This document shows, piece after piece, positions 22,893 through 37,222 of a stretch of DNA of 64,000 nucleotides. How positions within the stretch are numbered: the stretch's first letter is position 1; the number at the start of each line of letters is the position of its first letter. The stretch covers positions 9,607-73,606 of the forward strand of contig DIUO01000015.1 in assembly GCA_002422365.1 (NCBI GenBank), given 5' to 3'. This DNA comes from Proteobacteria bacterium UBA6156. GTDB taxonomy: Bacteria > Pseudomonadota > Alphaproteobacteria > UBA2136 > UBA6156. The notes beneath the pieces are model-generated. The model did not search any database, was not told the origin of the DNA, and saw nothing but the letters and a program-made list of their open reading frames with translations. Made by a program: the position numbers and the translations under genes.

Positions 22893-23342
22893 ATGACGAC
22901 TTATGTGAAGGCGGCGGCGGGGCGTGGCACGAGTGTGATTTATGAGACTGACGACGGGCGGCGCGAGGAATGGAGCGGCGGCGACCGCAACTGGCGCAAC
23001 CAGAACCCGGGGAATATTCGGAGTAACCCCATTGCCTGGCGCGGCAAGATTGGCGAAGCAGGAGGCTTTGTGGTGTTTGCCGCGCCGGAATGGGGCCTGC
23101 GCGCGATGCGAATGATATTGGCCAACCGTGCGAAGGAGGGCAAAACGCTGGCGCAGGCGATTGCGCACTATGCGCCGAGTGTTGAGAACAACACGGAGGC
23201 GTATATTAAGCATGTGGTACGGCGGAGCGGAGTGGCGGCGGATGCTGTGTTGGCGGGTTTAAGGCCAGAGGAAATGGAGCGGGTGATGGCGGCGATGTGT
23301 GTGCATGAGGGGAGCCGGGTGGGCAAAGTTATTTTTAAATAG
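22893..23342 (+). CDS. hypothetical protein carrying only the GGDRNWRNQNPGN-motif domain (paralog 1)
   Basis: 149 aa, GGGAGGG Shine-Dalgarno, host-like GC. It is about 50% identical to the N-terminal 145 aa of the 23951-24619 product. Confidence 0.7.
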   Translation: MTTYVKAAAGRGTSVIYETDDGRREEWSGGDRNWRNQNPGNIRSNPIAWRGKIGEAGGFVVFAAPEWGLRAMRMILANRAKEGKTLAQAIAHYAPSVENNTEAYIKHVVRRSGVAADAVLAGLRPEEMERVMAAMCVHEGSRVGKVIFK

Positions 23343-23380
23343 GCGATTGTAGAGCCTATAGGTAACGGCTAGCATACAGC

Positions 23381-23884
23381 ATGTATGCGTTCATCCTCAT
23401 TTTCATAGCTATTTCGTTTACCGCATGGAGCGAAATACTTGAACTTACCTATGGCGTAAATCGTTTGGATGTTAACGCTGACGGGATACCGGATATGATA
23501 TTGCGTACACGTCGGGATAACTTCACAGCGCACAGTTTTGACCGTTATACAATACTTGTAACATTACCTAATCGTGATCACCCTGCTAGCATTTACGATG
23601 TTCCCATAGGCACGGGACCTAAATCTGATTTCCATACCACTGAAGGTGCTGACTGCCTACGTACTGGATATACATTTGAACGCGACAGCAATGGTATATT
23701 GGTGGTTACTCGCTACATGCTGGAAGAAGGAGATCGTTTTTACTGCGAACCCACCCCACTAACTGTGACAACCTATAAACTTACATCAGGGACTGACGAA
23801 CTGATTGCGCCTTATTATATGAAGCAAACCGGCGAGAGAATAGTAAGAAAAACTTATGAAGATGTGAGTGGATTGGTGGAATAA
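23381..23884 (+). CDS. small secreted/periplasmic hypothetical protein (167 aa) in a low-GC insert
   Basis: Signal peptide MYAFILIFIAISFTAWS, an FG-GAP-like LDVNADGIPDMIL, and 2 Cys. The coding sequence is AT-richer than its surroundings. Confidence 0.6.
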   Translation: MYAFILIFIAISFTAWSEILELTYGVNRLDVNADGIPDMILRTRRDNFTAHSFDRYTILVTLPNRDHPASIYDVPIGTGPKSDFHTTEGADCLRTGYTFERDSNGILVVTRYMLEEGDRFYCEPTPLTVTTYKLTSGTDELIAPYYMKQTGERIVRKTYEDVSGLVE

Positions 23885-23950
23885 TTTAATTTACGACTAG
23901 GTAGCCCCCAATGGGGCAATTTTTATATTGAATGAGGGAGAAATTATGCA

Positions 23951-24619
23951 GTGAGCAACTATGTCAGTGCTTCAGCCGGAGCTGATAACACGGTGTTATA
24001 TACTGATGCGGATGAGCGCGTATTTCAGTATACGGGGGGAGATCGCAACTGGCGCAACCAGAACCCCGGAAATGTAAGGAGCAACTCAATTCAATGGGAC
24101 GGCAAAATTGGATCTGCTGGAGGGTTTTGCATATTTAGCAATCCCGAATTCGGGCGCCGCGCTGTGCGAAAAATTCTTTCAAATCGTAGGAAAGAAAATA
24201 AAACGTTATCAGAAGCCATTTCTAGCTATGCACCTCAGAGTGAGAATAATACAAATGCTTATTTAAAAGATGTAGAGAGGCGTACGGGCATTTCTGGAAA
24301 AACCAGACTTTCCGACCTTAATGATTCTCAAATGGAAAGTATTGCTCAGGCTATTTTTATACATGAGGGAACACGTGAAGGTACTGTTCATCAGTTAAAA
24401 CCTAAGAAAAACCCGCCCACTGGCTTTTATATTTGGCATACATCACATGATGAAAAAGTAAGAGATAGTCACGCCGAACGCGATGGAAAACTTTTTGATT
24501 TTGGAAATCCACCTGCTGGAGGCAATCCCGGAGATGATTATAATTGTCGTTGTTGGGCAGAACCTCTTTCTTCTTTGCCAAACACCCCAAAGACCCTAAA
24601 TAGTATTTTTAAGAAATAA
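23951..24619 (+). CDS. GGDRNWRNQNPGN-motif domain fused to a phage Mu F / SPP1 gp7-like core (paralog 2)
   Basis: GTG start with a GAGGGAG Shine-Dalgarno. The C-terminal FYIWHTSHDEKVRDSHAERDGKLFDFGNPPAGGNPGDDYNCRCWAEP fits the Phage_Mu_F core pattern (D.rVR.sH..l.G...PG...NCRC). Confidence 0.75.
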   Translation: MSNYVSASAGADNTVLYTDADERVFQYTGGDRNWRNQNPGNVRSNSIQWDGKIGSAGGFCIFSNPEFGRRAVRKILSNRRKENKTLSEAISSYAPQSENNTNAYLKDVERRTGISGKTRLSDLNDSQMESIAQAIFIHEGTREGTVHQLKPKKNPPTGFYIWHTSHDEKVRDSHAERDGKLFDFGNPPAGGNPGDDYNCRCWAEPLSSLPNTPKTLNSIFKK

Positions 24620-24650
24620 ATGGGTGGCCATAACCACCCATTTATTTTTG
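24614..24650. terminator. bidirectional terminator between paralog 2 and the convergent hydrolase gene
   Basis: Perfect 14-bp stem aaataaatgggtgg / ccacccatttattt. The stop codon of the 222-aa ORF lies inside the stem. Confidence 0.7.
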
Positions 24651-24662
24651 TAATGAGCCTGA

Positions 24663-25313
24663 TTACCGGCCGGGTTTGCCCATTTCTCGCTGCACATAGG
24701 CGGCGATGGTGGCGCCGAGTTCATCTTGCTGGTTGGTGAAGAAGTGGTCGGCACCGTTGATTTTGGCGGCGCTGATGGTGATGCCCTTTTGGCGGGTGGA
24801 TTTTTTCAGCATGTTTTCGGTGTCTTCGGCGGTAGTGATTTCGTCGTTGTTACCATAAATAACCAGGCCGGAAGTGGGGCAAGGGCTGAGGAAGGTGAAG
24901 TCGTACAGACCCGCTGGTGGGGCGACGGCGATAAAGCGCTTGAGGTCGGGGCGGCGCATGAGCATTTGCAGTGTTATCCAGCTGCCGAAGGAGAAGCCTG
25001 CGAGCCAGATTTCTGGCGCGTGGGGGTGGTTGGCGTGCAGCCAGTCGAGGGCGGCGGCAGCGTCGGAGAGTTCTCCCACACCGTTGTCGAACACGCCCTC
25101 GGAATTGCCGACACCGCGGAAGTTGAAGCGGAGGACGGAAAAGCCCATGCGCACGAAGGTTTCGAACAGTTTGTACGTTACCTTGTTGTTCATGGTGCCG
25201 CCGTGCAGCGGGTGCGGGTGGAGAATGACCACGATGGGCGTTTCGGGGTTCTTTTGGGCAAAATACTTGCCTTCCAGGCGGCCGGCGGGGCCTTGGAAGT
25301 TGACGTCGGGCAT
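24663..25313 (-). CDS. alpha/beta-fold hydrolase (COG2945-like)
   Basis: Nucleophile elbow GFSFGSW and a C-terminal GADHFF His motif. 216 aa. Confidence 0.8.
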   Translation of the reverse strand: MPDVNFQGPAGRLEGKYFAQKNPETPIVVILHPHPLHGGTMNNKVTYKLFETFVRMGFSVLRFNFRGVGNSEGVFDNGVGELSDAAAALDWLHANHPHAPEIWLAGFSFGSWITLQMLMRRPDLKRFIAVAPPAGLYDFTFLSPCPTSGLVIYGNNDEITTAEDTENMLKKSTRQKGITISAAKINGADHFFTNQQDELGATIAAYVQREMGKPGR

Positions 25314-29305: not shown

Positions 29306-30277
29306 TCAGTTACGTTCCAGACAGTTTTCTCCGCCGGAGAAGCAGAGGCTGGCGGAAAAGGGCGGGTCGGTTCTTTGTGTGATGTTCGGGCTGAACATGA
29401 GGATGCGGCCCCAGGGGTCTTGGGCGTAGGCGGCAGGCAGGCCGAGGTCGATCATCATTTGCTGCATCTCGGACAAGTTGCCGCTGGCGTAGGCGCGTTT
29501 GCCGAGGACTTTGTCGGCGTAGTAGACGGTACCGGGGGTCATGTCGGCATCGGACATGGGGTAGTAATTGAACAGCGTGTAGTTTTTACCGTCTATGCTG
29601 GTGCACCAGCTGGGGGCGCCTTCTACCACCGCGCAGGTGTTTTGGGCTTCGAGGAATGAGGCGGATTCCACCGCTTCCAGTTTATCGATAATGAGTTGGG
29701 CGCGGGCGCGGTATTCGGCCAGGCGCTGCATTTCGACATCGCGCGAGACATACTTGATGCCGATGTCGTCGCCACGGGTTTGCCAGGCGTTGTAGTCGTT
29801 TTCGGAGCTGATGCCGCCGGATTCGGCCACGCCGTCTTTGCCTCGGCTGGAGATGACGGCCATTTGCATGGTGATGGGGGTATCTTCTATGCGCACGGTG
29901 GCGTTGGTTTGGCTGTACTCCCAGGCGTTGCCCCAGGGGTCGCGGCGCAGGGAGATATCGACCAGGTTGCCTTCGCGGAAGAGGTCGTCCAGCGTGGCAG
30001 GCAGGCGGTTGATGCCGACCTGCGTGTAATAACGGCCTAAGCTGTCGCGCAGCATTTCTAATTGCGCTTCGGCGGCTTGCACCTTGCTGCTTTCTAACCG
30101 CGACATGATGGTGACGCCGCCTGCGGCGGTGAGAATGGCGGCGACGATCAGCGCGATGCGGGCATCCATGCCGAACATGGCGCCGCGCTGGTTGGCCAAG
30201 CCCGCAGTGTGCGACAGGGAGGTGATGAGACGCTTCAACATAATCATGATGGCCCTATTCTGCCGTATTCTGTTCAT
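29306..30277 (-). CDS. large atypical pseudopilin-like protein (323 aa)
   Basis: LANQRGAMFGMDARIALIVAAILTAAGGVTIM is a pilin-like N-terminal helix after a long leader. It carries two GspG-like motifs (RRDPWGNAWEY, AQDPWGRILMF). The start codon is uncertain (30277, 30247 or 30241). Confidence 0.6.
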   Translation of the reverse strand: MNRIRQNRAIMIMLKRLITSLSHTAGLANQRGAMFGMDARIALIVAAILTAAGGVTIMSRLESSKVQAAEAQLEMLRDSLGRYYTQVGINRLPATLDDLFREGNLVDISLRRDPWGNAWEYSQTNATVRIEDTPITMQMAVISSRGKDGVAESGGISSENDYNAWQTRGDDIGIKYVSRDVEMQRLAEYRARAQLIIDKLEAVESASFLEAQNTCAVVEGAPSWCTSIDGKNYTLFNYYPMSDADMTPGTVYYADKVLGKRAYASGNLSEMQQMMIDLGLPAAYAQDPWGRILMFSPNITQRTDPPFSASLCFSGGENCLERN

Positions 30278-31031
30278 CTTTCAAGCTCAGATTCATGGTT
30301 TGGGTGTAATCCCACGGAGTTGTGAAGGTTAATGTGGCCTTCTGGCCGCTCGCATCCGGCATGTAGCTGAAGTCCCTCCCCCAGGCATCGCGGAGGTCGA
30401 ACTTGCCTTTCAGGGTCTGGAATTCGCTGTCGGTGGGGAAGCGGAAGGCCCCGGCGTAAAAGGTGTAGAGCTGTTCGGCCATTTGCTCCATCCGCCGGGT
30501 GCTGGTGCGCACCTGCTGGTTGCGGGCGAGAGAGGTATCGTATAACGCCACCGCCTGGTTGCCGGTTTTGGTTTCCAGCACGTTGCGCTCCGACTCGGTA
30601 CGGTAGATCTGGCTGCGTACCAGGGTGTCGTCTGTCCCCGCGATGGCAACGGTGGTGGCGTTCTGGCCGTAGAATTCACGGTTGGATTCTCGCGCGGCGA
30701 GCATGAAGTCTTGTCCGCCGCGTGTGCGGGCCTGAGACTGGGAGTAGGTGCGGGCACGTTCGAGGTCGTAAGTGGTGCTGTAGGTTTGCCCGGTTTCGGT
30801 CAGAATGGCGAATTCCATACCCTTGGCGATATCTTCGGCTTGGGTTTGGGCGCGTTGGGTTTGGGTTTTCTGGTAGGCTTCGAGCTCTTGCCGGGCCCAT
30901 TGGACGGAGAGGGCGGAAAAAATGCTCATGCCCATGACCAGCCCGAACATGAACGGCGAAAACCCGCCCTGCTGGTTGGCGATTACCCCGAGCTGAGTGG
31001 GCCGGGTTGGGGTAGCGGGAGTGGCGTGCAT
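30255..31031 (-). CDS. atypical pseudopilin-like protein (258 aa)
   Basis: IANQQGGFSPFMFGLVMGMSIFSAL (G-F-S then a hydrophobic helix, Met rather than Glu at +5). The C-terminal LRDAWGRDFSY is GspG-like. Confidence 0.55.
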   Translation of the reverse strand: MHATPATPTRPTQLGVIANQQGGFSPFMFGLVMGMSIFSALSVQWARQELEAYQKTQTQRAQTQAEDIAKGMEFAILTETGQTYSTTYDLERARTYSQSQARTRGGQDFMLAARESNREFYGQNATTVAIAGTDDTLVRSQIYRTESERNVLETKTGNQAVALYDTSLARNQQVRTSTRRMEQMAEQLYTFYAGAFRFPTDSEFQTLKGKFDLRDAWGRDFSYMPDASGQKATLTFTTPWDYTQTMNLSLKDEQNTAE

Positions 31032-31046
31032 GTGCCCCCTGCCCGC

Positions 31047-31949
31047 CTAATAGGCGTACCTTATGGTGAGAACGTAAGGCGCGCCGTTGAGGTCGAGCAT
31101 GACCTCTCTGCGCGAGATGGACGTGACCTGCACCGGCAGCACCAAGGTTTTGTAGCCGATTTCCGGCTTTTGGGCACGTTCGGTTGCAAATTGCTGGAGG
31201 GCTTCGTCGTAGGCTTTGCTGTAGTTGGCCTCCAGCGCCGGAGAAAGGGTGCCAGGTGCGGGCATTTGGGCGTTAAGCGCCTGGGCCAGCACGGCCTCTG
31301 GCACGCGCATGGGGATGCTGATGCGGAAGGTATCGCCGACCTCATAGCGTTGCTGATTGATGACCGCGTAGCTGACCGGAGAGGTGACAATGGCCTGCAA
31401 CACCAATGTGCTGAGCGCGCTGCCGAAGCTGTAGCGTGCGGCGTCGGGTTCCCATTTTTCTACGGCGCGCGTAAGGGTGGCGCCGAGTTGGTTGCGGAAC
31501 TGGGTGAGGTCGGGCTCGGCACTGGCGGCCACCACGGGGAGGTCGATCGCCTGGGCCATGAGTTTATCCATCAGGCTTTGGCGGCCGGAGGTGAGGACGT
31601 CGGTAACTTGGCCGGTGCCGCTGACAAGCTCGGTTTGCGAAACCGCCGTTTTGACCGGGACCAGAATACGCAAGGGGTCGAGCTGGCTGTCATCTTCTAT
31701 GAGAACACCCAGGCTGGGCACCAATGGCAGGGGCACGCCGTTGCGGGCGGCATCGGCTCGGGCCTGCGAGATGGCTTCGTCGCGCGCGAAGATGAAATCC
31801 GGCGTGCCGCTGAAGGTGCGCGGCCATTCCAGACGCTCGGCCCGCGAGCCGCCTGTGGCCTGCGCATGGGCACCGCCCGCCAGCAGCACAGCCGCCAGCA
31901 GCAGGAGGGCGCCGCGCGCGCTAGTAGAAGGTATCTTTATCGTACGCAT
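31047..31949 (-). CDS. periplasmic protein, putative GspC/PilP-like component (300 aa)
   Basis: Signal peptide ...LLAGGAHA. The C-terminal strands AVINQQRYEVGDTF and VTSISRREVMLDLNGAPYVLTI resemble the GspC HR / PilP fold pattern. The assignment is tentative. Confidence 0.5.
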   Translation of the reverse strand: MRTIKIPSTSARGALLLLAAVLLAGGAHAQATGGSRAERLEWPRTFSGTPDFIFARDEAISQARADAARNGVPLPLVPSLGVLIEDDSQLDPLRILVPVKTAVSQTELVSGTGQVTDVLTSGRQSLMDKLMAQAIDLPVVAASAEPDLTQFRNQLGATLTRAVEKWEPDAARYSFGSALSTLVLQAIVTSPVSYAVINQQRYEVGDTFRISIPMRVPEAVLAQALNAQMPAPGTLSPALEANYSKAYDEALQQFATERAQKPEIGYKTLVLPVQVTSISRREVMLDLNGAPYVLTIRYAY

Positions 31950-32421
31950 AAATATATCCTTCGATTTGAACCATGCTGAGCTCTGGCGGGGCGCCGCGCG
32001 GGGTTGCGGTGCACCCGAAGCAGAAACTGTAGGGCACGTAACCGGGCAGGCGCGTCATGCGCTCGAGCACCGCTTGAGCCTCGGGGTAGGTGCTGGGGCC
32101 GGAAATACGGTAGGTGTAGCGCGCCAAGGCCTTGTTGTTGCCGCGGATGAGCGGCTGGCCGATGATGCGGAGGTCGAGCCGGGGGGCGCCGATATCGAGC
32201 GCGCGCTCGAGTTCGTTTTTTTGCACGAAGCGGATGTCTTGGCTGATGCGGCGGATTTCGGCAATGCGCACCTGGAGGTTTTTGCCGGCGTCGCGTTTCT
32301 CCAGCGCGTCTTCCAGTGCATAGGTGCGGCTGTCGATCATCGCGACGTTATCGAAGTATTTATAGAGCCCCAAAATGGCCGTGAAAATGATGATGGCCAG
32401 GCCTGCGGAAAAGCGGATCAT
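31921..32421 (-). CDS. N-terminally anchored bitopic protein, putative GspM/PilO-like component (166 aa)
   Basis: TM MIRFSAGLAIIIFTAILGLY, then a coiled coil, then an alpha/beta domain. Its ATG overlaps the upstream stop (ATGA). Confidence 0.5.
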   Translation of the reverse strand: MIRFSAGLAIIIFTAILGLYKYFDNVAMIDSRTYALEDALEKRDAGKNLQVRIAEIRRISQDIRFVQKNELERALDIGAPRLDLRIIGQPLIRGNNKALARYTYRISGPSTYPEAQAVLERMTRLPGYVPYSFCFGCTATPRGAPPELSMVQIEGYIYAYDKDTFY

Positions 32422-33881
32422 TCAGTGTCCTCCTGCGGCTGGATGGCCTGCGGCCGGTTACCCCGGGGCTGGGTGGGCGAGCTTTGCAGCGAAGCCTTGT
32501 TGAGGCGCGAGGCAAAGGGTTTGTATTCCCGCTCCAGCTCGGTGGCATCGACCAACCCTTCCAGCTTGAAGCCGCTGGTGGTGTTGGGTTTGCGCACGGC
32601 TTCCAGGAGCGCGGAATTGAGAATGAGGCTACGGGCGACGGGCTCTTGTTGCAGCCAGCCCTGGTAGATGTCGTTCTGGGCATCTATGCTGATAATATAC
32701 TGCTTGGGCGGTTGCTCGGGCTCGGGCGAGCGGACCTCGAACTGCTTGACCTGGAAGCCGGAGCGCTCGATGGCGCGGGCGGTGTCCTTCGTGACCAGGG
32801 GGAAGAGTTCGCGCTTGCGCCACATGCGCTCTTGCTCGGCGATGGCGCGCTCGAGGTCGGAGAATTGGCCGCCGCGCGGGATTTGCTGTTCGATCATGGC
32901 CAGTTGGTCTGACAGGGCCTGGATTTGGCCGCCCTGATACCAGAGCCCGGCATAGGTGGCTAAGGCGACAAGGATGCCGGTAAACAGGGCGTGGCTGCCG
33001 TAGCGTTCTTGGAACGTCGGCTTGTTCAGCCAGGTTGCGTCGTCGAGCGGCAGGTCTCGTAACGAGTGCACGGTGACGCGGTCGGAGGGGGGGAGGATGT
33101 CGGTATCCCACTGCGTATAAAGGTGGGCGCGGGTGGTGCGGGGGTAGCTTTTCAGCACCTGGTCGAGGTCGCGCGTCCAGCTGATGGCAGTGGTGGGGAG
33201 GACGTAGTTATCTTTCGTATCCCAATGAAAGAGGGTATCGGCAACCAGCAGAATATTAATGGTGTTGGGCTCGCTGCGCGAGATGCGGCAGAGGTCTATC
33301 AGCGCCATGGGGCCCACCAGCTGCTGGGCCAGGGCCACGGCGTTGGGGTCGGCCAGGTCGTCGTCGGAGATGCCTTCTCCGGACAGGAACAGGTAGGGAT
33401 TGGCAGGTTTGCCATCGAGCCCGCGCGGCGCAAAGAAGAACAGTGCGGTGTTGCGCTTGAGGCTTTCGCCCACCAGATCGGTCCAGTTGTCGTTAAACGC
33501 GGGTTGGTTGTCGCCAGCCATGAGGAGCTCGGACTTGTTCAGCCCCACAAAGCAGAGGTGGCGGAACGTACCGCCGACCGAATTAATGACGGTGGAGGCA
33601 GCCAGTTTGTATGTAAAACTGCGCAGCAGGGTGCGGGCTTCGGCCCAGAGCGGGCCCATAAACTCGGCGGTGCCGTGCCAGAATTCCCGTGCCATTTGCT
33701 GCACCATGGGCAGGTTTTCTTCCAGCCGGCTTTGCAGGCGGGGGGGCATGCGTTCTACCAGCTGCTTGTGCAGCTTGCTGCGCACGGCCTGAACCACCGC
33801 GTCGTCGGTGCTGTGCACGCCCTCGGGGCCCGCTTCCGGCGGGGTGGGTGAGGTGCGGTTCGGGTTCGTATCTTCGCTCAT
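32418..33881 (-). CDS. bitopic protein with a large cytoplasmic domain, putative GspL or PilM-PilN-like component (487 aa)
   Basis: About 330 cytoplasmic aa, one TM (ALFTGILVALATYAGLWY), a coiled coil (QIQALSDQLAMIEQQ) and a periplasmic domain. The ORF opens at 33953; the start MSEDTNP at 33881 avoids overlap with the GspF-like gene. Confidence 0.55.
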   Translation of the reverse strand: MSEDTNPNRTSPTPPEAGPEGVHSTDDAVVQAVRSKLHKQLVERMPPRLQSRLEENLPMVQQMAREFWHGTAEFMGPLWAEARTLLRSFTYKLAASTVINSVGGTFRHLCFVGLNKSELLMAGDNQPAFNDNWTDLVGESLKRNTALFFFAPRGLDGKPANPYLFLSGEGISDDDLADPNAVALAQQLVGPMALIDLCRISRSEPNTINILLVADTLFHWDTKDNYVLPTTAISWTRDLDQVLKSYPRTTRAHLYTQWDTDILPPSDRVTVHSLRDLPLDDATWLNKPTFQERYGSHALFTGILVALATYAGLWYQGGQIQALSDQLAMIEQQIPRGGQFSDLERAIAEQERMWRKRELFPLVTKDTARAIERSGFQVKQFEVRSPEPEQPPKQYIISIDAQNDIYQGWLQQEPVARSLILNSALLEAVRKPNTTSGFKLEGLVDATELEREYKPFASRLNKASLQSSPTQPRGNRPQAIQPQEDTE

Positions 33882-33889
33882 GCTCTGCC

Positions 33890-35029
33890 TTATGCCTGCG
33901 ATAATACGATTGATAACATATCCAACATCATTACGGCACCGCCCATGATCCATAATAGCGCGCTGGTGATGCCGATAAACTGCTTGTGGGTGTCGTTCAG
34001 GATACGCTCGAGCAGTGTGTGGGCGTGCGACATACCTTCGATCAGCACGTCGTTCACGTTGCCTTCGGTGGGGGCGTAGTTTTCGGCAACGCTAACGGGA
34101 GTTACAATCAGCTCGGGGAAGCCTGCGCGGCTCATGGCCTCGGCCATGGTGCCGCCGGTGGTGATGACGTGGTTGAATTGGTCGATACGCCGCCGGATGA
34201 CGATGTTGGTGGCCAGGCCCTCCATAATGGGAATGAGCTGCTTGGGCTTGACGCCACTGGCGATAAGATAAGGGAAATACAGCAACATTTGGGTGTAGGT
34301 TTGGTAAATGAGGTAACGCCCGTAAATGGGGATTTTAAGCTGCATGTTGTGCAGCGTAGTGCGCCCGGCGGGGTTGGAATTGAGCGACCAGATGACGACA
34401 ATGGCCACCAGAATGACACCGGCAAACAGATACCAGTACTCGGCACAGGCCTGGGTGGCGGACATGATGCCGTTGGGGATCATCCCCATGGGTTTGCCCT
34501 GGGCTTCTCTTAACTTTGCCATGACCGGCAGGGTGTTGAGGCCGGTGTTGAACACCGACACCAGCGAGAGCACCAGCATGAGCAGCGGCGTGAGGAGCTC
34601 GGCCAACCCGGCGCGGCGGGAATTGATGGCTTTGTCTTCGAGGATACGCAGAATCTCGAACGATTTTTGCATGTTGTTGGAGGCTTCTCCGGCCAGGATG
34701 GCGGCACGGTGGAGCTCGGTGAACATACGGCGCTCTGTCTGCATGGCCTGGCTGAGCGACTTACCCTGCGCCACCTTTTGCGACAGGCCGGTGATGGCGT
34801 TGGCGACGGCCTCGTTTTTTTCCGCCCGGAAGGCACGGGCCACGGCGCGCAGGGCGTCGGAAGTGGTTTGGCCGGTTTTCATCATCATGGCCATGAAGAA
34901 GAAGAAGCGTTCGCGGTCGCGGGGGTCTATCGCCGCGCTGCCCACGGTGCCGCCGCCAAACAGCGCCTGCAGCCCGGTGGGCCGGTAACTAGCGGAGGGC
35001 TTCGAGATCGGCACTGAAGTATCTTTCAA
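33890..35029 (-). CDS. type II secretion / type IV pilus platform protein (GspF/PilC family)
   Basis: Two T2SSF-type repeats (FFFFMAMMMKTGQTTSDALRAV...; YFPYLIASGVKPKQLIPIMEGLA...) and three TM segments. It overlaps the ATPase gene by 41 nt. Confidence 0.8.
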   Translation of the reverse strand: MKDTSVPISKPSASYRPTGLQALFGGGTVGSAAIDPRDRERFFFFMAMMMKTGQTTSDALRAVARAFRAEKNEAVANAITGLSQKVAQGKSLSQAMQTERRMFTELHRAAILAGEASNNMQKSFEILRILEDKAINSRRAGLAELLTPLLMLVLSLVSVFNTGLNTLPVMAKLREAQGKPMGMIPNGIMSATQACAEYWYLFAGVILVAIVVIWSLNSNPAGRTTLHNMQLKIPIYGRYLIYQTYTQMLLYFPYLIASGVKPKQLIPIMEGLATNIVIRRRIDQFNHVITTGGTMAEAMSRAGFPELIVTPVSVAENYAPTEGNVNDVLIEGMSHAHTLLERILNDTHKQFIGITSALLWIMGGAVMMLDMLSIVLSQA

Positions 35030-36683
35030 GTTCTTCCAGGCTGCTTATGCCGTTTTTCATGTGCCGCAGGCCTTGGGCCAGCATGTCGTTCATGCCCGCA
35101 GCCTTGGCTTGCTCGCGCACCACTTCAATCCAGTCCGGGCGCAGGCGGTTGCTGCTCCAGACATTGCGGGAGATTTCGCGGCGCCACATTTCCAGCACTT
35201 CTTCCATGGCGATACGCCCGGAATAGCCACGGTAGTGGCAGAGCTCGCACCCGTTGCGGTTGGGGCGGCAGATGGTGTCTCCGCGCTTGAAGCCCAGGGG
35301 CCGCAGGGTGTTGAGGCTGTCGGCGAGTTGCTGATCGATTTCGTACGGCACCTTGCACTTGGGGCAAAGGCGCCGCAGCAGCCGCTGCGAGACGATGCCG
35401 CGCACATTGCTGAAAATGAGTTCCGGCGGGACGCCGCGTTGCAGCAGGCGGTCGAGCGTCATGAAGGAATCGTTTGCGTGCATGGTGGTGATGACCAGGT
35501 GACCGGTGTTCCCGGCATCGATAACGCGGCGGGTGTCTTCGGGGCTACGCACTTCTCCGATGAACATCACGTCGGGGTCGAGACCCAAAGCGGCATAGAG
35601 GAAGGTTTCGAGATTCACGCCCGCAGCCAGGTCTTCTTCGGTCTGGATGACGTTATCCATCCGCTCTTCGATTTGCTTTTCGTAACTGATGACGTTCTGG
35701 CCGGGGCGCTGGCCACGGCGGATCATCAGCCGGCAGGCCGTTGATTTACCCGAACCCGTGGGCCCGGCAAAAATGATTACGCCTTCTTCAAACCGCATCA
35801 GGGTATCGATTTTATCAATCGTTTCGTCGGCATAGCCGAAGGTTTCCATATGCCCCTCGAACGGGCGCAGGAAACGCATGGCGATTTTGGCAGTGTTCTC
35901 CAGCGTGATGGGCTGGGTGGTGTAGCGGATATCGACCGATTGGCGGTTGGTGAGGTCAAAGGTCATCCGTCCGTAGAGCGGTTTTTTGAAGTTTTCGGCA
36001 CTCACGCCCGCCATGTGCCGCAGGCGGCCGACAACGCGGTCGTAGACTTCCATGGGCAGGGCGACCAGCTCTTCCAGCTCGTTATCTATCCGCGCCATGA
36101 CGGTAGGTTTGCGGTTGAGGATTTCGATGTGGAGGTCGGACGCGCCGTTTTTGTAGGCGGTGCGGATGATTTCATCCACCAGGTTCACAATCGCGTCGTC
36201 GTTGCCGACGTTGAGCTGGGCGTAGGCGTTTTCCACCAAAAACTTCAGGCTGTGGCCTTCGCGCTTACTCATCCGCTCGATGGCGGACTCGATACTTTTG
36301 GCCGAAGCCCAGACGAACGAGTGGCTGTTTTTGCGGTTGCGGAGGAGAATTTCGGAATGCAGGCGCTTGTTAGGGAGGTCGGCGGCCGCCCAGGTGACGT
36401 TGTTACGGCCAAGTTCTATGGGGCATGCGGTGTAGAAGGTGAGGAAGGCGCGGTCGATGCCTTCTACCTGGTGGGGGGTGACTTTGGCCATTTCTTCGTC
36501 GTTCTTGACCGGGAAGTCGTACGCCACAGCCCGGTAGCGCGCTTGCTGGTTGGGCGTGAGCTTACCGGCCTTACCGAGGGCTTCGATCAGTGCGTCGGGG
36601 TCCTTCTGCACCGTGACGGGCAGGTTGTGGAGATCGGCCATTGAAATGACGTGATCGGCGATCATAAGGTCGACGATATCCAT
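34989..36683 (-). CDS. type II secretion / type IV pilus assembly ATPase (GspE/PilB family)
   Basis: Walker A GPTGSGKST, Walker B DPDVMFIGEVRSPED, His box TGHLVITTMHAND, tetracysteine CPKC...CELCHYRGYSGR. Confidence 0.92.
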   Translation of the reverse strand: MDIVDLMIADHVISMADLHNLPVTVQKDPDALIEALGKAGKLTPNQQARYRAVAYDFPVKNDEEMAKVTPHQVEGIDRAFLTFYTACPIELGRNNVTWAAADLPNKRLHSEILLRNRKNSHSFVWASAKSIESAIERMSKREGHSLKFLVENAYAQLNVGNDDAIVNLVDEIIRTAYKNGASDLHIEILNRKPTVMARIDNELEELVALPMEVYDRVVGRLRHMAGVSAENFKKPLYGRMTFDLTNRQSVDIRYTTQPITLENTAKIAMRFLRPFEGHMETFGYADETIDKIDTLMRFEEGVIIFAGPTGSGKSTACRLMIRRGQRPGQNVISYEKQIEERMDNVIQTEEDLAAGVNLETFLYAALGLDPDVMFIGEVRSPEDTRRVIDAGNTGHLVITTMHANDSFMTLDRLLQRGVPPELIFSNVRGIVSQRLLRRLCPKCKVPYEIDQQLADSLNTLRPLGFKRGDTICRPNRNGCELCHYRGYSGRIAMEEVLEMWRREISRNVWSSNRLRPDWIEVVREQAKAAGMNDMLAQGLRHMKNGISSLEELERYFSADLEALR

Positions 36684-36918: not shown

Positions 36919-36994
36919 TGGTGGGCGATGACGGACTCGAACCGCCGACATCCTCCGTGTAAAGGAGGCGCTCTACCAACTGAGCTAATCGCCC
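36919..36994 (-). tRNA. tRNA-Val (TAC)
   Basis: Manual fold: acceptor GGGCGAT/ATCGCCC, anticodon stem CCTCC/GGAGG with loop TTTACAC, T-loop GTTCGAGTC, encoded CCA. Confidence 0.95.
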
Positions 36995-37044
36995 GGAAGA
37001 CCGGATATCTGGAGGACCTGACTTTTCTTCGGTGGGGAAAAATC

Positions 37045-37138
37045 TGGCGGAAGCGACGGGACTTGAGCCCGCACCCCTCGGTGTGTTGCACCGAAGGTGC
37101 ACTACTCCAAGCCCGCCGATACTCTAACCCTTCGGAGG
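37045..37138 (-). pseudogene. tRNA-Asp-derived remnant (3-prime half plus D-arm, disrupted anticodon region, no 5-prime acceptor strand)
   Basis: Shares GGTTAGAGTATCGGC and ...CCGAGGGGTGCGGGCTCAAGTCCCGTCGCTTCCGCCA with tRNA-Asp. About 26 nt is inserted in place of the anticodon loop and forms a TTCG-looped hairpin. The T-loop is mutated (CTCAAGT). Confidence 0.6.
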
Positions 37139-37145
37139 AAAAATC

Positions 37146-37222
37146 TGGCGGAAGCGACGGGACTCGAACCCGCGACCCTCGGCGTGACAAGCCGATACTC
37201 TAACCAACTGAGCTACGCCTCC
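37146..37222 (-). tRNA. tRNA-Asp (GTC)
   Basis: Manual fold: acceptor GGAGGCG/CGCTTCC, anticodon stem TCGGC/GCCGA with loop TTGTCAC, T-arm GCGGGTTCGAGTCCCGT, G73, encoded CCA. Confidence 0.95.

What the first reader, a model, noticed from the sequence alone, without database searches (positions are those of the whole stretch)
29306..36683. Compact secretin-less type II secretion / type IV filament-like operon with atypical large pseudopilins and three unassignable platform proteins
Seven co-directional genes are packed with overlaps or gaps of 15 nt or less: 41-nt, ATGA, 29-nt and 23-nt overlaps, plus 8-nt and 15-nt gaps.

Only two gene products are recognisable:
- A GspE/PilB ATPase, with Walker A GPTGSGKST, the His box and the tetracysteine motif.
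- A GspF/PilC platform protein.

The next three have the topologies of assembly-platform parts, but I can name no family for any of them:
- A 487-aa bitopic protein with about 330 cytoplasmic residues, one TM segment and a coiled coil. This is GspL-like or PilM-PilN-fusion-like.
- A 166-aa N-anchored protein, GspM/PilO-like.
- A 300-aa signal-peptide protein with GspC-HR/PilP-like C-terminal strands.

The last two genes encode unusually large pilin-like proteins (258 and 323 aa).
- They carry D[PA]WG..[FWY].[YF] motifs typical of the GspG pseudopilin fold (RRDPWGNAWEY, AQDPWGRILMF, LRDAWGRDFSY).
- They have long leaders of 22-33 aa.
- They share an A-N-Q-[QR]-G motif immediately before the hydrophobic helix.
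- They have no Glu at +5 (Met in one; in the other Met or Asp, depending on the cleavage point).

The 64 kb contains no secretin, no prepilin peptidase and no GspH-K minor pseudopilins. The operon starts right after a tRNA-Asp / remnant / tRNA-Val cluster. Together this looks like a minimal, divergent type IV filament machine of unknown output (secretion, adhesion or uptake).
Basis: partly seen in the sequence, partly recalled or inferred. Interest (0 to 1): 0.8.

Follow-up and report, generated by a model that had tools for sequence, protein, structure and literature searches.

The report
Divergent type II secretion-like pilus operon
This is a real, conserved seven-gene operon for a very divergent type II-secretion-like (type IV filament) machine found only in a group of uncultured Alphaproteobacteria; its pilin-like subunits have an unusual N-terminus, but calling it "secretin-less and peptidase-less" goes further than the evidence allows.

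Summary
Seven co-directional, tightly packed genes lie on the minus strand at 29306-36683.

**What the genes encode**
- A GspE/PilB-type ATPase and a GspF-type platform protein.
- Two pilin-like proteins.
Two are now placed:
  - The 487-aa protein has a GspL-like fold.
  - The 300-aa protein carries a GspB/GspC-HR-type domain, the kind that binds secretins.
  - The 166-aa protein is GspM-like only by position, size and topology.

**Distribution**
- The operon keeps its gene order in about 25 species-level genomes assembled from metagenomes, all uncultured Alphaproteobacteria.
- In most of them it continues into an eighth gene, a short A24 prepilin peptidase with no methyltransferase-associated N-terminal domain.
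- In a close relative of the window organism, that peptidase sits about 120 kb away on the same contig. It was relocated, not lost.

**Pilins**
- The pilins share a conserved Q-x-G | A-M-F-G-M-D-A-R-I-A type N-terminus with no Glu5.
- Marine relatives carry extra small pilins of the same class, just upstream of the ATPase gene or, in at least one genome, at a second locus.

**Secretin**
No secretin was found in the window or in any ±10 kb flank. Whole genomes could not be searched, and the HR domain argues that a secretin partner exists.

**Verdict**
This is a new, sequence-orphan variant of a known kind of machine. Interest is moderate.

The parts
34989..36683 (-). E: GspE/PilB-type assembly ATPase (564 aa) with an N-terminal N1E/MshEN-like region, Walker A motif and a tetracysteine Zn motif
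   Evidence: Pfam T2SSE 9.4e-69, and a weak MshEN hit below the cutoff. NCBIfam PilB scores 248 bits and GspE 241 bits, both far below the equivalog cutoffs. PDB best hits are PilB at 181 bits and EpsE at 178 bits. Identity across relatives is 71-94%.
33890..35029 (-). F: GspF/PilC-type polytopic inner-membrane platform protein (379 aa, TTG start, 41-nt overlap with E)
   Evidence: Pfam T2SSF 6.8e-17 with two stretches. NCBIfam GspF scores 99.9 bits, ahead of PilC at 70 bits. Three hydrophobic segments.
32418..33881 (-). p3: GspL-like bitopic protein (487 aa) with a cytoplasmic alpha/beta domain, one TM helix, a coiled coil and a periplasmic ferredoxin-like domain
   Evidence: AF2 mean pLDDT 83. 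The top Foldseek PDB hits are PulL, EpsL and GspL cytoplasmic domains (E 2.6e-3 to 3e-2) and PilO. No Pfam, NCBIfam or PDB sequence hit. It is an orphan family: only 27 hits among 1.84 billion representative proteins.
31921..32421 (-). p4: N-anchored 166-aa periplasmic protein in the GspM/PilO position, with an invariant CxxC (ATGA overlap with p3)
   Evidence: TM segment at residues 1-23. Conserved in all loci, with invariant C134 and C137. No hit in Pfam, PDB or hhalign. The assignment rests on position, size and topology only.
31047..31949 (-). p5: secreted 300-aa protein with a C-terminal GspB/GspC-HR/PilP-type beta domain interrupted by a helical insert
   Evidence: Signal peptide with a conserved AxA|Q site and no lipobox. 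Pfam T2SSB matches 18 of 25 family members, best E 2.4e-6, but the window copy itself does not match. AF2 C-terminal half has pLDDT above 90. The Foldseek top hit is GspB 4wfw (prob 0.96) and GspC-HR 3oss_C has TMt 0.70; the E-values are not significant.
30255..31031 (-). p6: 258-aa pilin-like protein with a class-III-type N-terminus Q-x-G|[AG]-F-S-P-F-M-F-G-L and a C-terminal D-x-W-G-x-x-F-x-Y module
   Evidence: N-terminus and D.WG motif conserved in 24 relatives. hhalign to the p7 N-terminus gives E 2.4e-4, and its C-terminal module against the p7 GspG-like module gives E 1.3e-3. No Pfam or PDB hit.
29306..30277 (-). p7: 313/323-aa GspG-like pseudopilin with two DPWG modules and the N-terminus Q-R-G|A-M-F-G-M-D-A-R-I-A-L-I-V (no Glu5; invariant Asp and Arg)
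   Evidence: Pfam T2SSG above the cutoff in the window copy and in 24 of 24 relatives. hhalign against E. coli GspG gives prob 64%, E 6e-5, over 110 columns. Invariant G11, D13 and R15, plus conserved Cys pairs.

Best explanation
This is the core operon of a functional, highly divergent type II-secretion-like member of the type IV filament superfamily. It is vertically inherited in a clade of uncultured, diderm Alphaproteobacteria.

**Proposed mechanism**
1. The GspE/PilB-type hexameric ATPase (E) docks on the cytoplasmic domain of the GspL-like protein (p3) and drives the GspF-type platform (F).
2. p3 pairs in the periplasm with the small anchored protein p4, which takes the GspM role.
3. The secreted protein p5 uses its GspB/GspC-HR-type domain to couple the platform to an outer-membrane secretin encoded elsewhere.
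4. A dedicated short A24 aspartic peptidase cleaves the leaders of p6 and p7 after the conserved Q-x-G, without N-methylation. This peptidase is the eighth gene of the operon in most relatives and lies elsewhere in this genome.
5. The mature subunits have Ala or Gly at +1 and no Glu5. In p7 an invariant Asp/Arg pair follows. They are polymerised into a short pseudopilus. In some relatives, extra small pilins of the same N-terminal class probably join it.
6. The most likely output is piston-like secretion or surface display of folded proteins.

**Shown**
- Gene content, gene order and conservation.
- Family or fold assignments for E, F, p3, p5, p7 and the peptidase.
- The N-terminal pilin signature.

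**Inferred**
- All protein-protein contacts.
- The cleavage site.
- The absence of methylation.
- The existence of a secretin.
- Secretion as the output.
For: - **Gene identity.** E and F are assigned. The p3 fold matches GspL cytoplasmic domains and PilO. The p5 family hits Pfam T2SSB in 18 of 25 members, and its model's top hit is GspB. The p7 family hits T2SSG in 24 of 24 members and aligns to E. coli GspG.
- **T2SS leaning.** F scores higher with GspF than with PilC. GspL, GspB/C-HR and GspG are all T2SS-type parts.
- **Conservation.** Synteny E-F-p3-p4-p5-p6-p7 holds in about 25 species-level genomes and in further metagenome contigs, with three different flanking contexts. E is 71-94% identical across them, which implies strong purifying selection.
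- **Peptidase.** It follows p7 directly in 15 or more loci. It keeps both catalytic Asp motifs. It aligns to GspO with 97% probability. It has only PF01478 and lacks the PF06750 N-terminal domain. In the relative carrying locus L015 it is retained 120 kb from the operon.
- **HR domains bind the secretin N0 domain** in GspB, GspC and PilP (PMC9239104).
- **Diderm host.** BamD, TolB and the Sec machinery are encoded in the window.
- **Single transcription unit.** No internal terminators or promoters exceed the shuffled expectation.
Against: - No secretin gene was found in the window, in about 45 related loci with up to ±10 kb of flank (motif scan), or among the precomputed Pfam annotations of neighbours.
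- No GspH-K homologues were found.
- The Foldseek E-values for p3 (2.6e-3 and weaker) and for p5 (0.37) are marginal. The window's own p5 does not reach Pfam T2SSB.
- p4 and p6 have no detectable homology to GspM or to named pseudopilins.
- E is equidistant from PilB and GspE, so the T2SS-versus-pilus call rests on the accessory proteins.
- Glu5, which is essential for recruiting the pseudopilin PulG to the T2SS platform, is absent. The assembly chemistry must therefore differ.
- No substrate is known.
Confidence: 0.5

Rival explanations
1. It builds a true surface pilus for adhesion, for contact with other cells or prey, or for motility, rather than a secretion pseudopilus. The small pilins of the same N-terminal class would be the major subunit. 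They lie upstream of E in several marine relatives, and in tandem arrays at a second locus in at least one of those genomes. The large proteins p6 and p7 would be minor or tip subunits.
For: - E scores at least as well with PilB as with GspE.
- Extra small pilins (about 165-180 aa mature) carry the same G|AMFG(M/L)DAR(I/V)A N-terminus. They occur next to E in L031, L032, L052 and L055, and in tandem arrays elsewhere. One such array is on the same 1.78-Mb contig as an operon (L055 and L063).
- Large E5-less subunits resemble tip pilins such as GspK or PilX-type proteins (established knowledge).
- The contigs recovered are 0.8-1.8 Mb long, which may point to small genomes and possibly a host- or prey-associated lifestyle. 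This is inference.
Against: - No PilT-type retraction ATPase was found. The nearby 348-aa ATPase in relatives is VirB11-like.
- No PilM, PilN or PilQ.
- p7 is the protein that matches the major pseudopilin family GspG.
- Small pilins were not seen in the window or in the flanks of its closest relatives.
- A surface pilus in a diderm also needs a secretin, which was not found.
Confidence: 0.25
2. It is a machine that truly works without a secretin. It would build a filament confined to the periplasm, or one that uses a non-secretin outer-membrane conduit. In that case the HR-like domain of p5 binds something else, such as peptidoglycan or another outer-membrane protein.
For: - No secretin lies in any of about 45 loci or in the 64-kb window.
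- p5 is a soluble secreted protein, not membrane-anchored like GspC or GspB and not a lipoprotein like PilP. Its HR domain carries a helical insert.
Against: - The absence is shown only for ±10 kb flanks.
- gspD is often a 'loner' gene in T2SS (PMC6668835).
- All characterised HR domains bind secretin N0 (PMC9239104).
Confidence: 0.12
3. It is a DNA-uptake (competence) pseudopilus of the Com/T4P type.
For: - The E-F-accessory-pilin-peptidase layout is compact and resembles com operons.
- dprA is present in the window.
Against: - dprA is nearly universal and is not linked to the operon.
- No comEA or comEC lies nearby.
- The accessory proteins are GspL- and GspB/C-like, not Com-like.
- The ComGA and ComGB models score far lower than the GspE and GspF models.
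Confidence: 0.08
4. It is a decaying remnant of a T2SS with no current function.
For: - The window's sublineage has lost the linkage to the peptidase.
- No secretin or minor pseudopilins are nearby.
Against: - All seven ORFs are intact in every locus examined.
- E is 71-94% identical across the clade, and the pilin N-termini are nearly invariant.
- The peptidase is retained elsewhere in a close relative.
Confidence: 0.02

Closest known systems
Type II secretion system (Gsp/Pul/Eps/Xcp) of Proteobacteria
   Same: - A GspE-type ATPase with a Zn tetracysteine motif and an N1E-like N-terminus.
- A GspF platform protein.
- A GspL-like bitopic protein followed by a small anchored protein in the GspM position.
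- A protein with a GspB/GspC-HR domain.
- A GspG-family pseudopilin with Q-x-G before the cleavage point.
- An A24 peptidase in the ancestral operon.
   Different: - No secretin or GspH-K in the locus.
- p3, p4, p5 and p6 are undetectable by sequence against Gsp proteins.
- The pseudopilins are 2-3 times larger. They have Ala or Gly at +1 and no Glu5.
- The peptidase lacks the N-terminal (methyltransferase-associated) domain.
- The HR protein is soluble rather than membrane-anchored.
- E and F score far below the GspE and GspF equivalog cutoffs.
'Generic' type IV filament systems of Denise, Abby & Rocha 2019 (for example the Chlamydiae T2SS that lacks GspLM and minor pilins)
   Same: - An ATPase, an IM platform and a pilin clustered together without meeting a specific model.
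- The secretin and peptidase may be encoded elsewhere (PMC6668835).
   Different: This one keeps GspL-like and HR-domain parts. It also has its own pilin N-terminal signature and its own peptidase subtype. It is restricted to one alphaproteobacterial clade.
Type IVa pilus (PilBCD, PilMNOPQ)
   Same: - E matches PilB over its full length.
- The periplasmic domain of p3 resembles PilO/PilN.
- The HR domain of p5 is the PilP fold.
   Different: - No separate PilM.
- No PilQ or PilT in the locus.
- The pilins are GspG-like and lack Phe1 and Glu5.
Tad/Flp pili and archaeal type IV pili
   Same: - A short A24 peptidase without the methylation domain.
- Pilins that are not N-methylated; archaeal ones commonly lack Glu5 (established knowledge).
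   Different: - The ATPase is GspE/PilB-type, not TadA/CpaF or FlaI.
- The platform is a single GspF, not TadB/C.
- The pilins are large and GspG-like, not Flp.
Mitochondrial T2SS-derived system (miT2SS)
   Same: A reduced Gsp set (E, F, G) of alphaproteobacteria-related context, with no recognisable GspO.
   Different: miT2SS has GspD, lacks GspL, keeps Glu5 in GspG, and its GspE lacks N1E (PMC8134430). No specific link was found.

Membership tests
Type IV filament superfamily (generic definition: ATPase + IM platform + type IV pilin) | PilB/GspE-family ATPase, GspF/PilC platform and at least one pilin with a class III signal, clustered together | tested here: met
   T2SSE, T2SSF and T2SSG Pfam hits, all above their cutoffs. 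The genes are contiguous.
Type II secretion system | GspE and GspF orthologues (equivalog level) | tested here: inconclusive
   TIGR02533 GspE scores 240 bits against a cutoff of 630, and TIGR02120 GspF scores 100 against 424. This shows family membership but not equivalog status. E scores equally with PilB.
Type II secretion system | Major pseudopilin GspG with G|F-T-L-x-E (Glu5) and N-methylation | tested here: not met
   The GspG domain is present. The N-terminus, however, is G|AMFGMDAR with no Glu5. The cognate peptidase lacks PF06750.
Type II secretion system | GspL (cytoplasmic actin-like domain binding GspE N1E, a TM helix, a periplasmic ferredoxin-like domain) | tested here: met
   Met at fold and architecture level only. 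The AF2 model (pLDDT 83) has GspL cytoplasmic domains and PilO as its top Foldseek hits, with E 2.6e-3 to 3e-2. There is no sequence-level signal.
Type II secretion system | GspM | tested here: inconclusive
   p4 has the right position, size and N-terminal anchor. It has no profile or PDB hit.
Type II secretion system | GspC (TM anchor + HR domain + PDZ/coiled coil) linking the platform to the secretin | tested here: inconclusive
   An HR-type domain is supported by T2SSB hits in 18 of 25 relatives and by GspB and GspC-HR Foldseek hits. p5 has a cleavable signal peptide, no TM anchor and no PDZ.
Type II secretion system | Secretin GspD | not testable with these tools
   Absent from the window and from all ±10 kb flanks. 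Whole genomes of the clade could not be searched.
Type II secretion system | Minor pseudopilins GspH, I, J, K | tested here: not met
   The operon holds only two pilin-like genes. hhalign of p6 and p7 against E. coli GspH-K gives probabilities of 6% or less. Extra small pilins in marine relatives were not compared with the E. coli Gsp pseudopilins; by eye they carry a W-x-G-P-Y motif reminiscent of the DPWG motif of GspG.
Type IVa pilus | PilM/PilN/PilO/PilP/PilQ set and a PilT retraction ATPase | tested here: not met
   There is no PilM, PilQ or PilT in the locus. pilT_fam scores 96 bits for E only, against a cutoff of 319. The nearby small ATPase in relatives is VirB11-like.
MSH pilus | MshE ATPase with a c-di-GMP-binding MshEN domain | tested here: inconclusive
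   MshEN scores 20.6 bits, below the 23.1 cutoff. No other Msh component was identified.
Tad (type IVc) pilus | TadA/CpaF ATPase, TadB/TadC, Flp pilin with G|xxxxEY | tested here: not met
   The TadA-type model scores 27.7 bits against a cutoff of 373. The platform is a single GspF-type protein. The pilins are not Flp-like. Only the short peptidase resembles Tad systems.

The most novel reading that the evidence does not exclude
The clade carries a distinct, so far unnamed class of type IV filament machine. Its pilins are assembled without Glu5 and without N-methylation. An invariant Asp/Arg pair at +6/+8 would replace the Glu5-to-N-terminus salt bridge. The machine would work in a diderm without a secretin, either as a periplasm-confined filament or through a different outer-membrane conduit.
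Probability: 0.12. Interest if true: 0.75.

Novelty: new variant of a known kind. Interest (0 to 1): 0.45.

Why it matters
- **A test of the Glu5 rule.** Glu5 and the N-methylated Phe1 are regarded as near-universal requirements for recruiting and packing bacterial type IV pilins and pseudopilins. Here a GspG-related subunit family has replaced them with a strictly conserved A-M-F-G-M-D-A-R motif and is served by a non-methylating peptidase. That makes it a natural experiment on how filament assembly can work without them.
- **Limits of annotation.** Four of the seven proteins (p3, p4, p5, p6) are invisible to standard annotation. The p3 family has only 27 relatives among 1.84 billion representative proteins. 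Systems like this one are therefore called 'generic' or missed in surveys of secretion systems.
- **A handle on an uncultured lineage.** The operon is almost the only recognisable envelope-spanning machine seen here for this uncultured alphaproteobacterial group, so its output bears on their lifestyle.
- **Scope.** The practical impact is modest. It is a variant of a well-understood machine in organisms that cannot yet be grown.

Tried and rejected
- **PDB sequence searches.** Profile searches with the p3, p4, p6 and p7 families found nothing meaningful.
- **Pfam and NCBIfam** gave nothing for p3, p4 or p6, neither on the window copies nor on all family members.
- **hhalign against E. coli K-12 GspB, C, G-M and O.** Only p7-GspG and peptidase-GspO were detectable.
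- **hhalign of p4 against p3**, to look for PilN/PilO-like paralogy, found none.
- **Secretin search.** I scanned all six-frame translations of the window and the loci fetched by then (L001-L039) for the C-terminal secretin motif and found none. A variant of the motif found none in L046-L064 either. L040-L045 were not scanned. This is a heuristic.
- **A PilT candidate.** The 348-aa T2SSE-family ATPase near the peptidase in relatives is VirB11-like and was rejected as part of the system.
- **A link to the mitochondrial T2SS** was rejected. Those GspG proteins keep Glu5, and the system lacks GspL.
- **Micavibrio as the host lineage or a described homologue.** The genome-collection scan returned only metagenome-assembled genomes, no isolates. 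The Micavibrio paper describes ordinary Gsp and Pil genes.
- **Riboswitch or RNA element upstream of E.** Rfam found only the two tRNAs.
- **Promoter and terminator scan.** Nothing exceeded the shuffled expectation.
- **Horizontal transfer.** The operon's GC (0.59-0.64) matches its surroundings, and its position after lon-hupB-tRNA is shared with relatives. It is not a recent island.
- **Literature.** Three searches found no description of this cluster.

Full report
**1. Observation**

The minus strand of the window carries seven contiguous ORFs.
- E 34989-36683
- F 33890-35029
- p3 32418-33881 (487-aa start)
- p4 31921-32421
- p5 31047-31949
- p6 30255-31031
- p7 29306-30277

The junctions are a 41-nt overlap, an 8-nt gap, an ATGA overlap, a 29-nt overlap, a 15-nt gap and a 23-nt overlap, exactly as reported.

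tRNA-Val (36919-36994) and tRNA-Asp (37146-37222) precede the operon. A degenerate partial copy of tRNA-Asp lies between them. Citrate synthase follows the operon.

The operon's GC content (0.59-0.64) matches its surroundings. No internal promoter-like or terminator-like sites exceed the shuffled expectation. Rfam finds only the two tRNAs.

**2. The recognisable parts**

*ATPase (E).* E matches Pfam T2SSE (9.4e-69) and contains GPTGSGKST and the CPKC...CELC tetracysteine motif. It scores almost equally with the PilB and GspE NCBIfam models (248 and 241 bits), far below both equivalog cutoffs. It also scores almost equally with PilB and EpsE structures in the PDB (181 and 178 bits). A weak MshEN/N1E-type match covers residues 68-143.

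*Platform (F).* F matches T2SSF. It scores higher with GspF (100 bits) than with PilC (70 bits).

*Pseudopilin (p7).* p7 matches Pfam T2SSG above the curated cutoff. So do all 24 family members tested. The family profile aligns to E. coli K-12 GspG over 110 columns (prob 64%, E 6e-5).

**3. The three 'unassignable' proteins**

*p3.* It has no sequence-level relative outside its own family.
- No hit in Pfam, NCBIfam or the PDB.
- A profile search of 1.84 billion representative proteins returned only 27 hits, all from the same family.
- An AlphaFold2 model built on 33 homologues (mean pLDDT 83) shows N-terminal helices, a cytoplasmic alpha/beta domain, one long TM helix, a coiled coil and a ferredoxin-like periplasmic domain.
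- The seven best Foldseek matches in the PDB are GspL cytoplasmic domains (PulL 5tkw, EpsL 1w97 and 1yf5, GspL in complex with GspE 4pht) and PilO (3jc8, 2rjz). E-values run from 2.6e-3 to 3e-2.
- The scores are marginal, but the hits are consistent and match the architecture. I therefore accept p3 as GspL-like.

*p5.* It has a signal peptide with a conserved AxA|Q site and no lipobox.
- 18 of 25 family members hit Pfam T2SSB (best E 2.4e-6). The window copy itself does not.
- The confident C-terminal half of its model has GspB (4wfw, prob 0.96) as top hit and GspC-HR (3oss_C, TMt 0.70) further down. The E-values are not significant.
- HR domains of GspB, GspC and PilP all bind the N0 domain of their secretin (PMC9239104).

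*p4.* It has an N-terminal anchor, a predicted helical stretch and a conserved C-terminal domain with an invariant CxxC. It has no detectable homology to anything. It is GspM-like by position, size and topology only.

**4. The pilin-like proteins**

*Shared N-terminal signature.* Both families have a variable basic leader that ends in Q-x-G, followed by a hydrophobic helix.
- p7: Q-[RSG]-G-A-M-F-G-M-D-A-R-I-A-L-I-V, nearly invariant across the clade.
- p6: Q-x-G-[AG]-F-S-P-F-M-F-G-L.
- The two N-termini align with each other (E 2.4e-4).
- Whether cleavage follows Q-x-G or the second conserved Gly (M-F-G), there is no Glu at +5. p7 instead has an invariant Asp and Arg two residues apart.

*Body of the proteins.*
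- p7 contains two DPWG-type modules. The first is the GspG match. The second resembles the first only weakly (E 3.8e-3).
- The C-terminal D-x-W-G-x-x-F-x-Y module of p6 aligns weakly with p7's first module (E 1.3e-3).

**5. Comparative genomics changes the picture**

*Distribution.* The p3 family was found in 25 species-level genomes, all metagenome-assembled. They are labelled Alphaproteobacteria, or mislabelled. No isolate genome was returned. In every locus the order E-F-p3-p4-p5-p6-p7 is kept.
- E is 71-94% identical to the window copy.
- p5 is only 23-62% identical.

*The peptidase.* In 15 or more loci, in at least three different flanking contexts, p7 is followed directly by a 190-205-aa Peptidase_A24 gene. 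A DnaJ-domain gene usually comes next.
- The peptidase family keeps both catalytic Asp motifs.
- It aligns to E. coli GspO at 97% probability.
- It has only PF01478, whereas more distant homologues also carry the PF06750 N-terminal domain.

*The window's sublineage.* In the window and its closest relatives the operon is instead followed by gltA. The window has no A24 homologue. In the close relative VAFM01000001.1 the orthologous peptidase-DnaJ pair sits about 120 kb from the operon on the same 1.02-Mb contig. Its neighbours there are the same prmC/prfA genes that flank the intact nine-gene arrangement in other genomes. A rearrangement therefore separated the operon from its peptidase. The peptidase was kept.

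**6. More pilins exist in relatives**

A metagenome scan with the p7 profile found two further kinds of gene.
- Small pilins (about 165-180 aa after the Gly) with the same G|A-[ML]-F-G-[MLV]-D-A-R-[IV]-A N-terminus lie immediately upstream of E in several marine relatives.
- Tandem arrays of two to four such pilins lie at a separate conserved locus, near fabH and a BamE-like lipoprotein gene. One array is on the same 1.78-Mb contig as an operon (L055 and L063).
- One contig carries three tandem full-length p7 paralogues (L056).

No such genes lie in the window or in the ±10 kb flanks of its nearest relatives, and those genomes could not be searched in full. The two operon-encoded pilins therefore need not be the whole filament. 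They need not include the major subunit either.

**7. Secretin**

- Every ORF of 400 aa or more in the window is a housekeeping gene: SpoT, UvrA, SecD, Icd, TolB, enolase, GltA, Lon, ClpX, trigger factor, LigA, RecN, CysS, GltX and SecA.
- Neighbour annotations in relatives show no secretin.
- A scan for the conserved C-terminal secretin motif found none in the window or in almost all of the fetched loci.
- The host is a diderm: BamD and TolB are encoded in the window.
- Whole-genome absence could not be tested. In T2SS the secretin gene is known to occur away from the other genes, and peptidases can be shared between systems. 884 'generic' type IV filament systems remain unclassified in the reference survey (PMC6668835).

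**8. Interpretation**

The best-supported reading is a functional, strongly diverged T2SS-like type IV filament machine. It consists of:
- an ATPase,
- a platform protein,
- a GspL-like protein,
- a protein in the GspM position,
- an HR-domain coupler,
- GspG-related subunits with a clade-specific class III signal, and
- a dedicated non-methylating peptidase.

The HR domain and the T2SS flavour of the accessory proteins make a secretin-coupled pseudopilus the most likely output (confidence about 0.5). Rivals and their confidences:
- a surface pilus built mainly from the small pilins (about 0.25);
- a truly secretin-independent machine (about 0.12);
- DNA uptake (about 0.08);
- decay, which is effectively excluded by the conservation.

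**9. Novelty**

Three literature searches found no description of this cluster. It is not a new kind of machine. It is a new variant with several unusual, conserved features:
- pilins without Glu5 that carry an invariant Asp/Arg pair;
- Ala or Gly at +1;
- a short peptidase;
- a two-module GspG-like subunit;
- a soluble HR protein;
- four protein families that are orphan at sequence level.

Its interpretation is partly supported. The claims of 'secretin-less', 'peptidase-less' and 'minimal' go beyond the evidence, and for the peptidase they are contradicted by relatives.

Noticed in passing
window 37040-37140 (minus strand): A degenerate partial duplicate of tRNA-Asp, covering D-arm-like and 3'-half sequence and ending in the same ...gtcccgtcgcttccgccagatttttcc. 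It lies between tRNA-Asp and tRNA-Val. Neither ARAGORN nor Rfam calls it.
   Followed up: partly
window 23000-25000: GC drops to 0.47-0.48, against about 0.59 around it. The two ORFs here are a CarG-like protein (23381-23884) and a protein with a Phage_Mu_F domain (23951-24619). This may be a small foreign insertion or a toxin/immunity-type module among housekeeping genes.
   Followed up: partly
L001 15035-15592; L041 10586-11176; most related loci: A protein of about 185-196 aa, with an N-terminal Cys/His-rich motif and a C-terminal J domain, follows the A24 peptidase in nearly all relatives. It stays with the peptidase when the operon is separated from it. Its role is unknown. The window has no homologue.
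   Followed up: partly
L041 17453-18499; L037 18300-19238: A VirB11-like ATPase of 312-348 aa (T2SSE Pfam family) recurs a few kb from the peptidase or operon in relatives. It is not PilT-like. What it works with is unknown.
   Followed up: partly
L060 4667-6568; L061 32-2517; L063 9983-11151: Tandem arrays of two to four small pilin genes share the G|AMFG(M/L)DAR(I/V)A N-terminus. They sit at a conserved locus beside a BamE-like lipoprotein gene and fabH, away from the assembly operon.
   Followed up: partly
L056 178-4849: One metagenome contig carries a p6-like gene followed by three tandem full-length p7 paralogues (27-29% identical to the window's p7). This shows expansion of the large pseudopilin in some lineages.
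   Followed up: no
(record titles): Several genomes carrying the operon are deposited under clearly wrong organism names (Pseudomonas fluorescens, Blastochloris viridis, Pseudomonadaceae, Magnetococcales). The gene context is alphaproteobacterial (clpX-lon-hupB-tRNA). The clade has no cultured or properly named representative.
   Followed up: no
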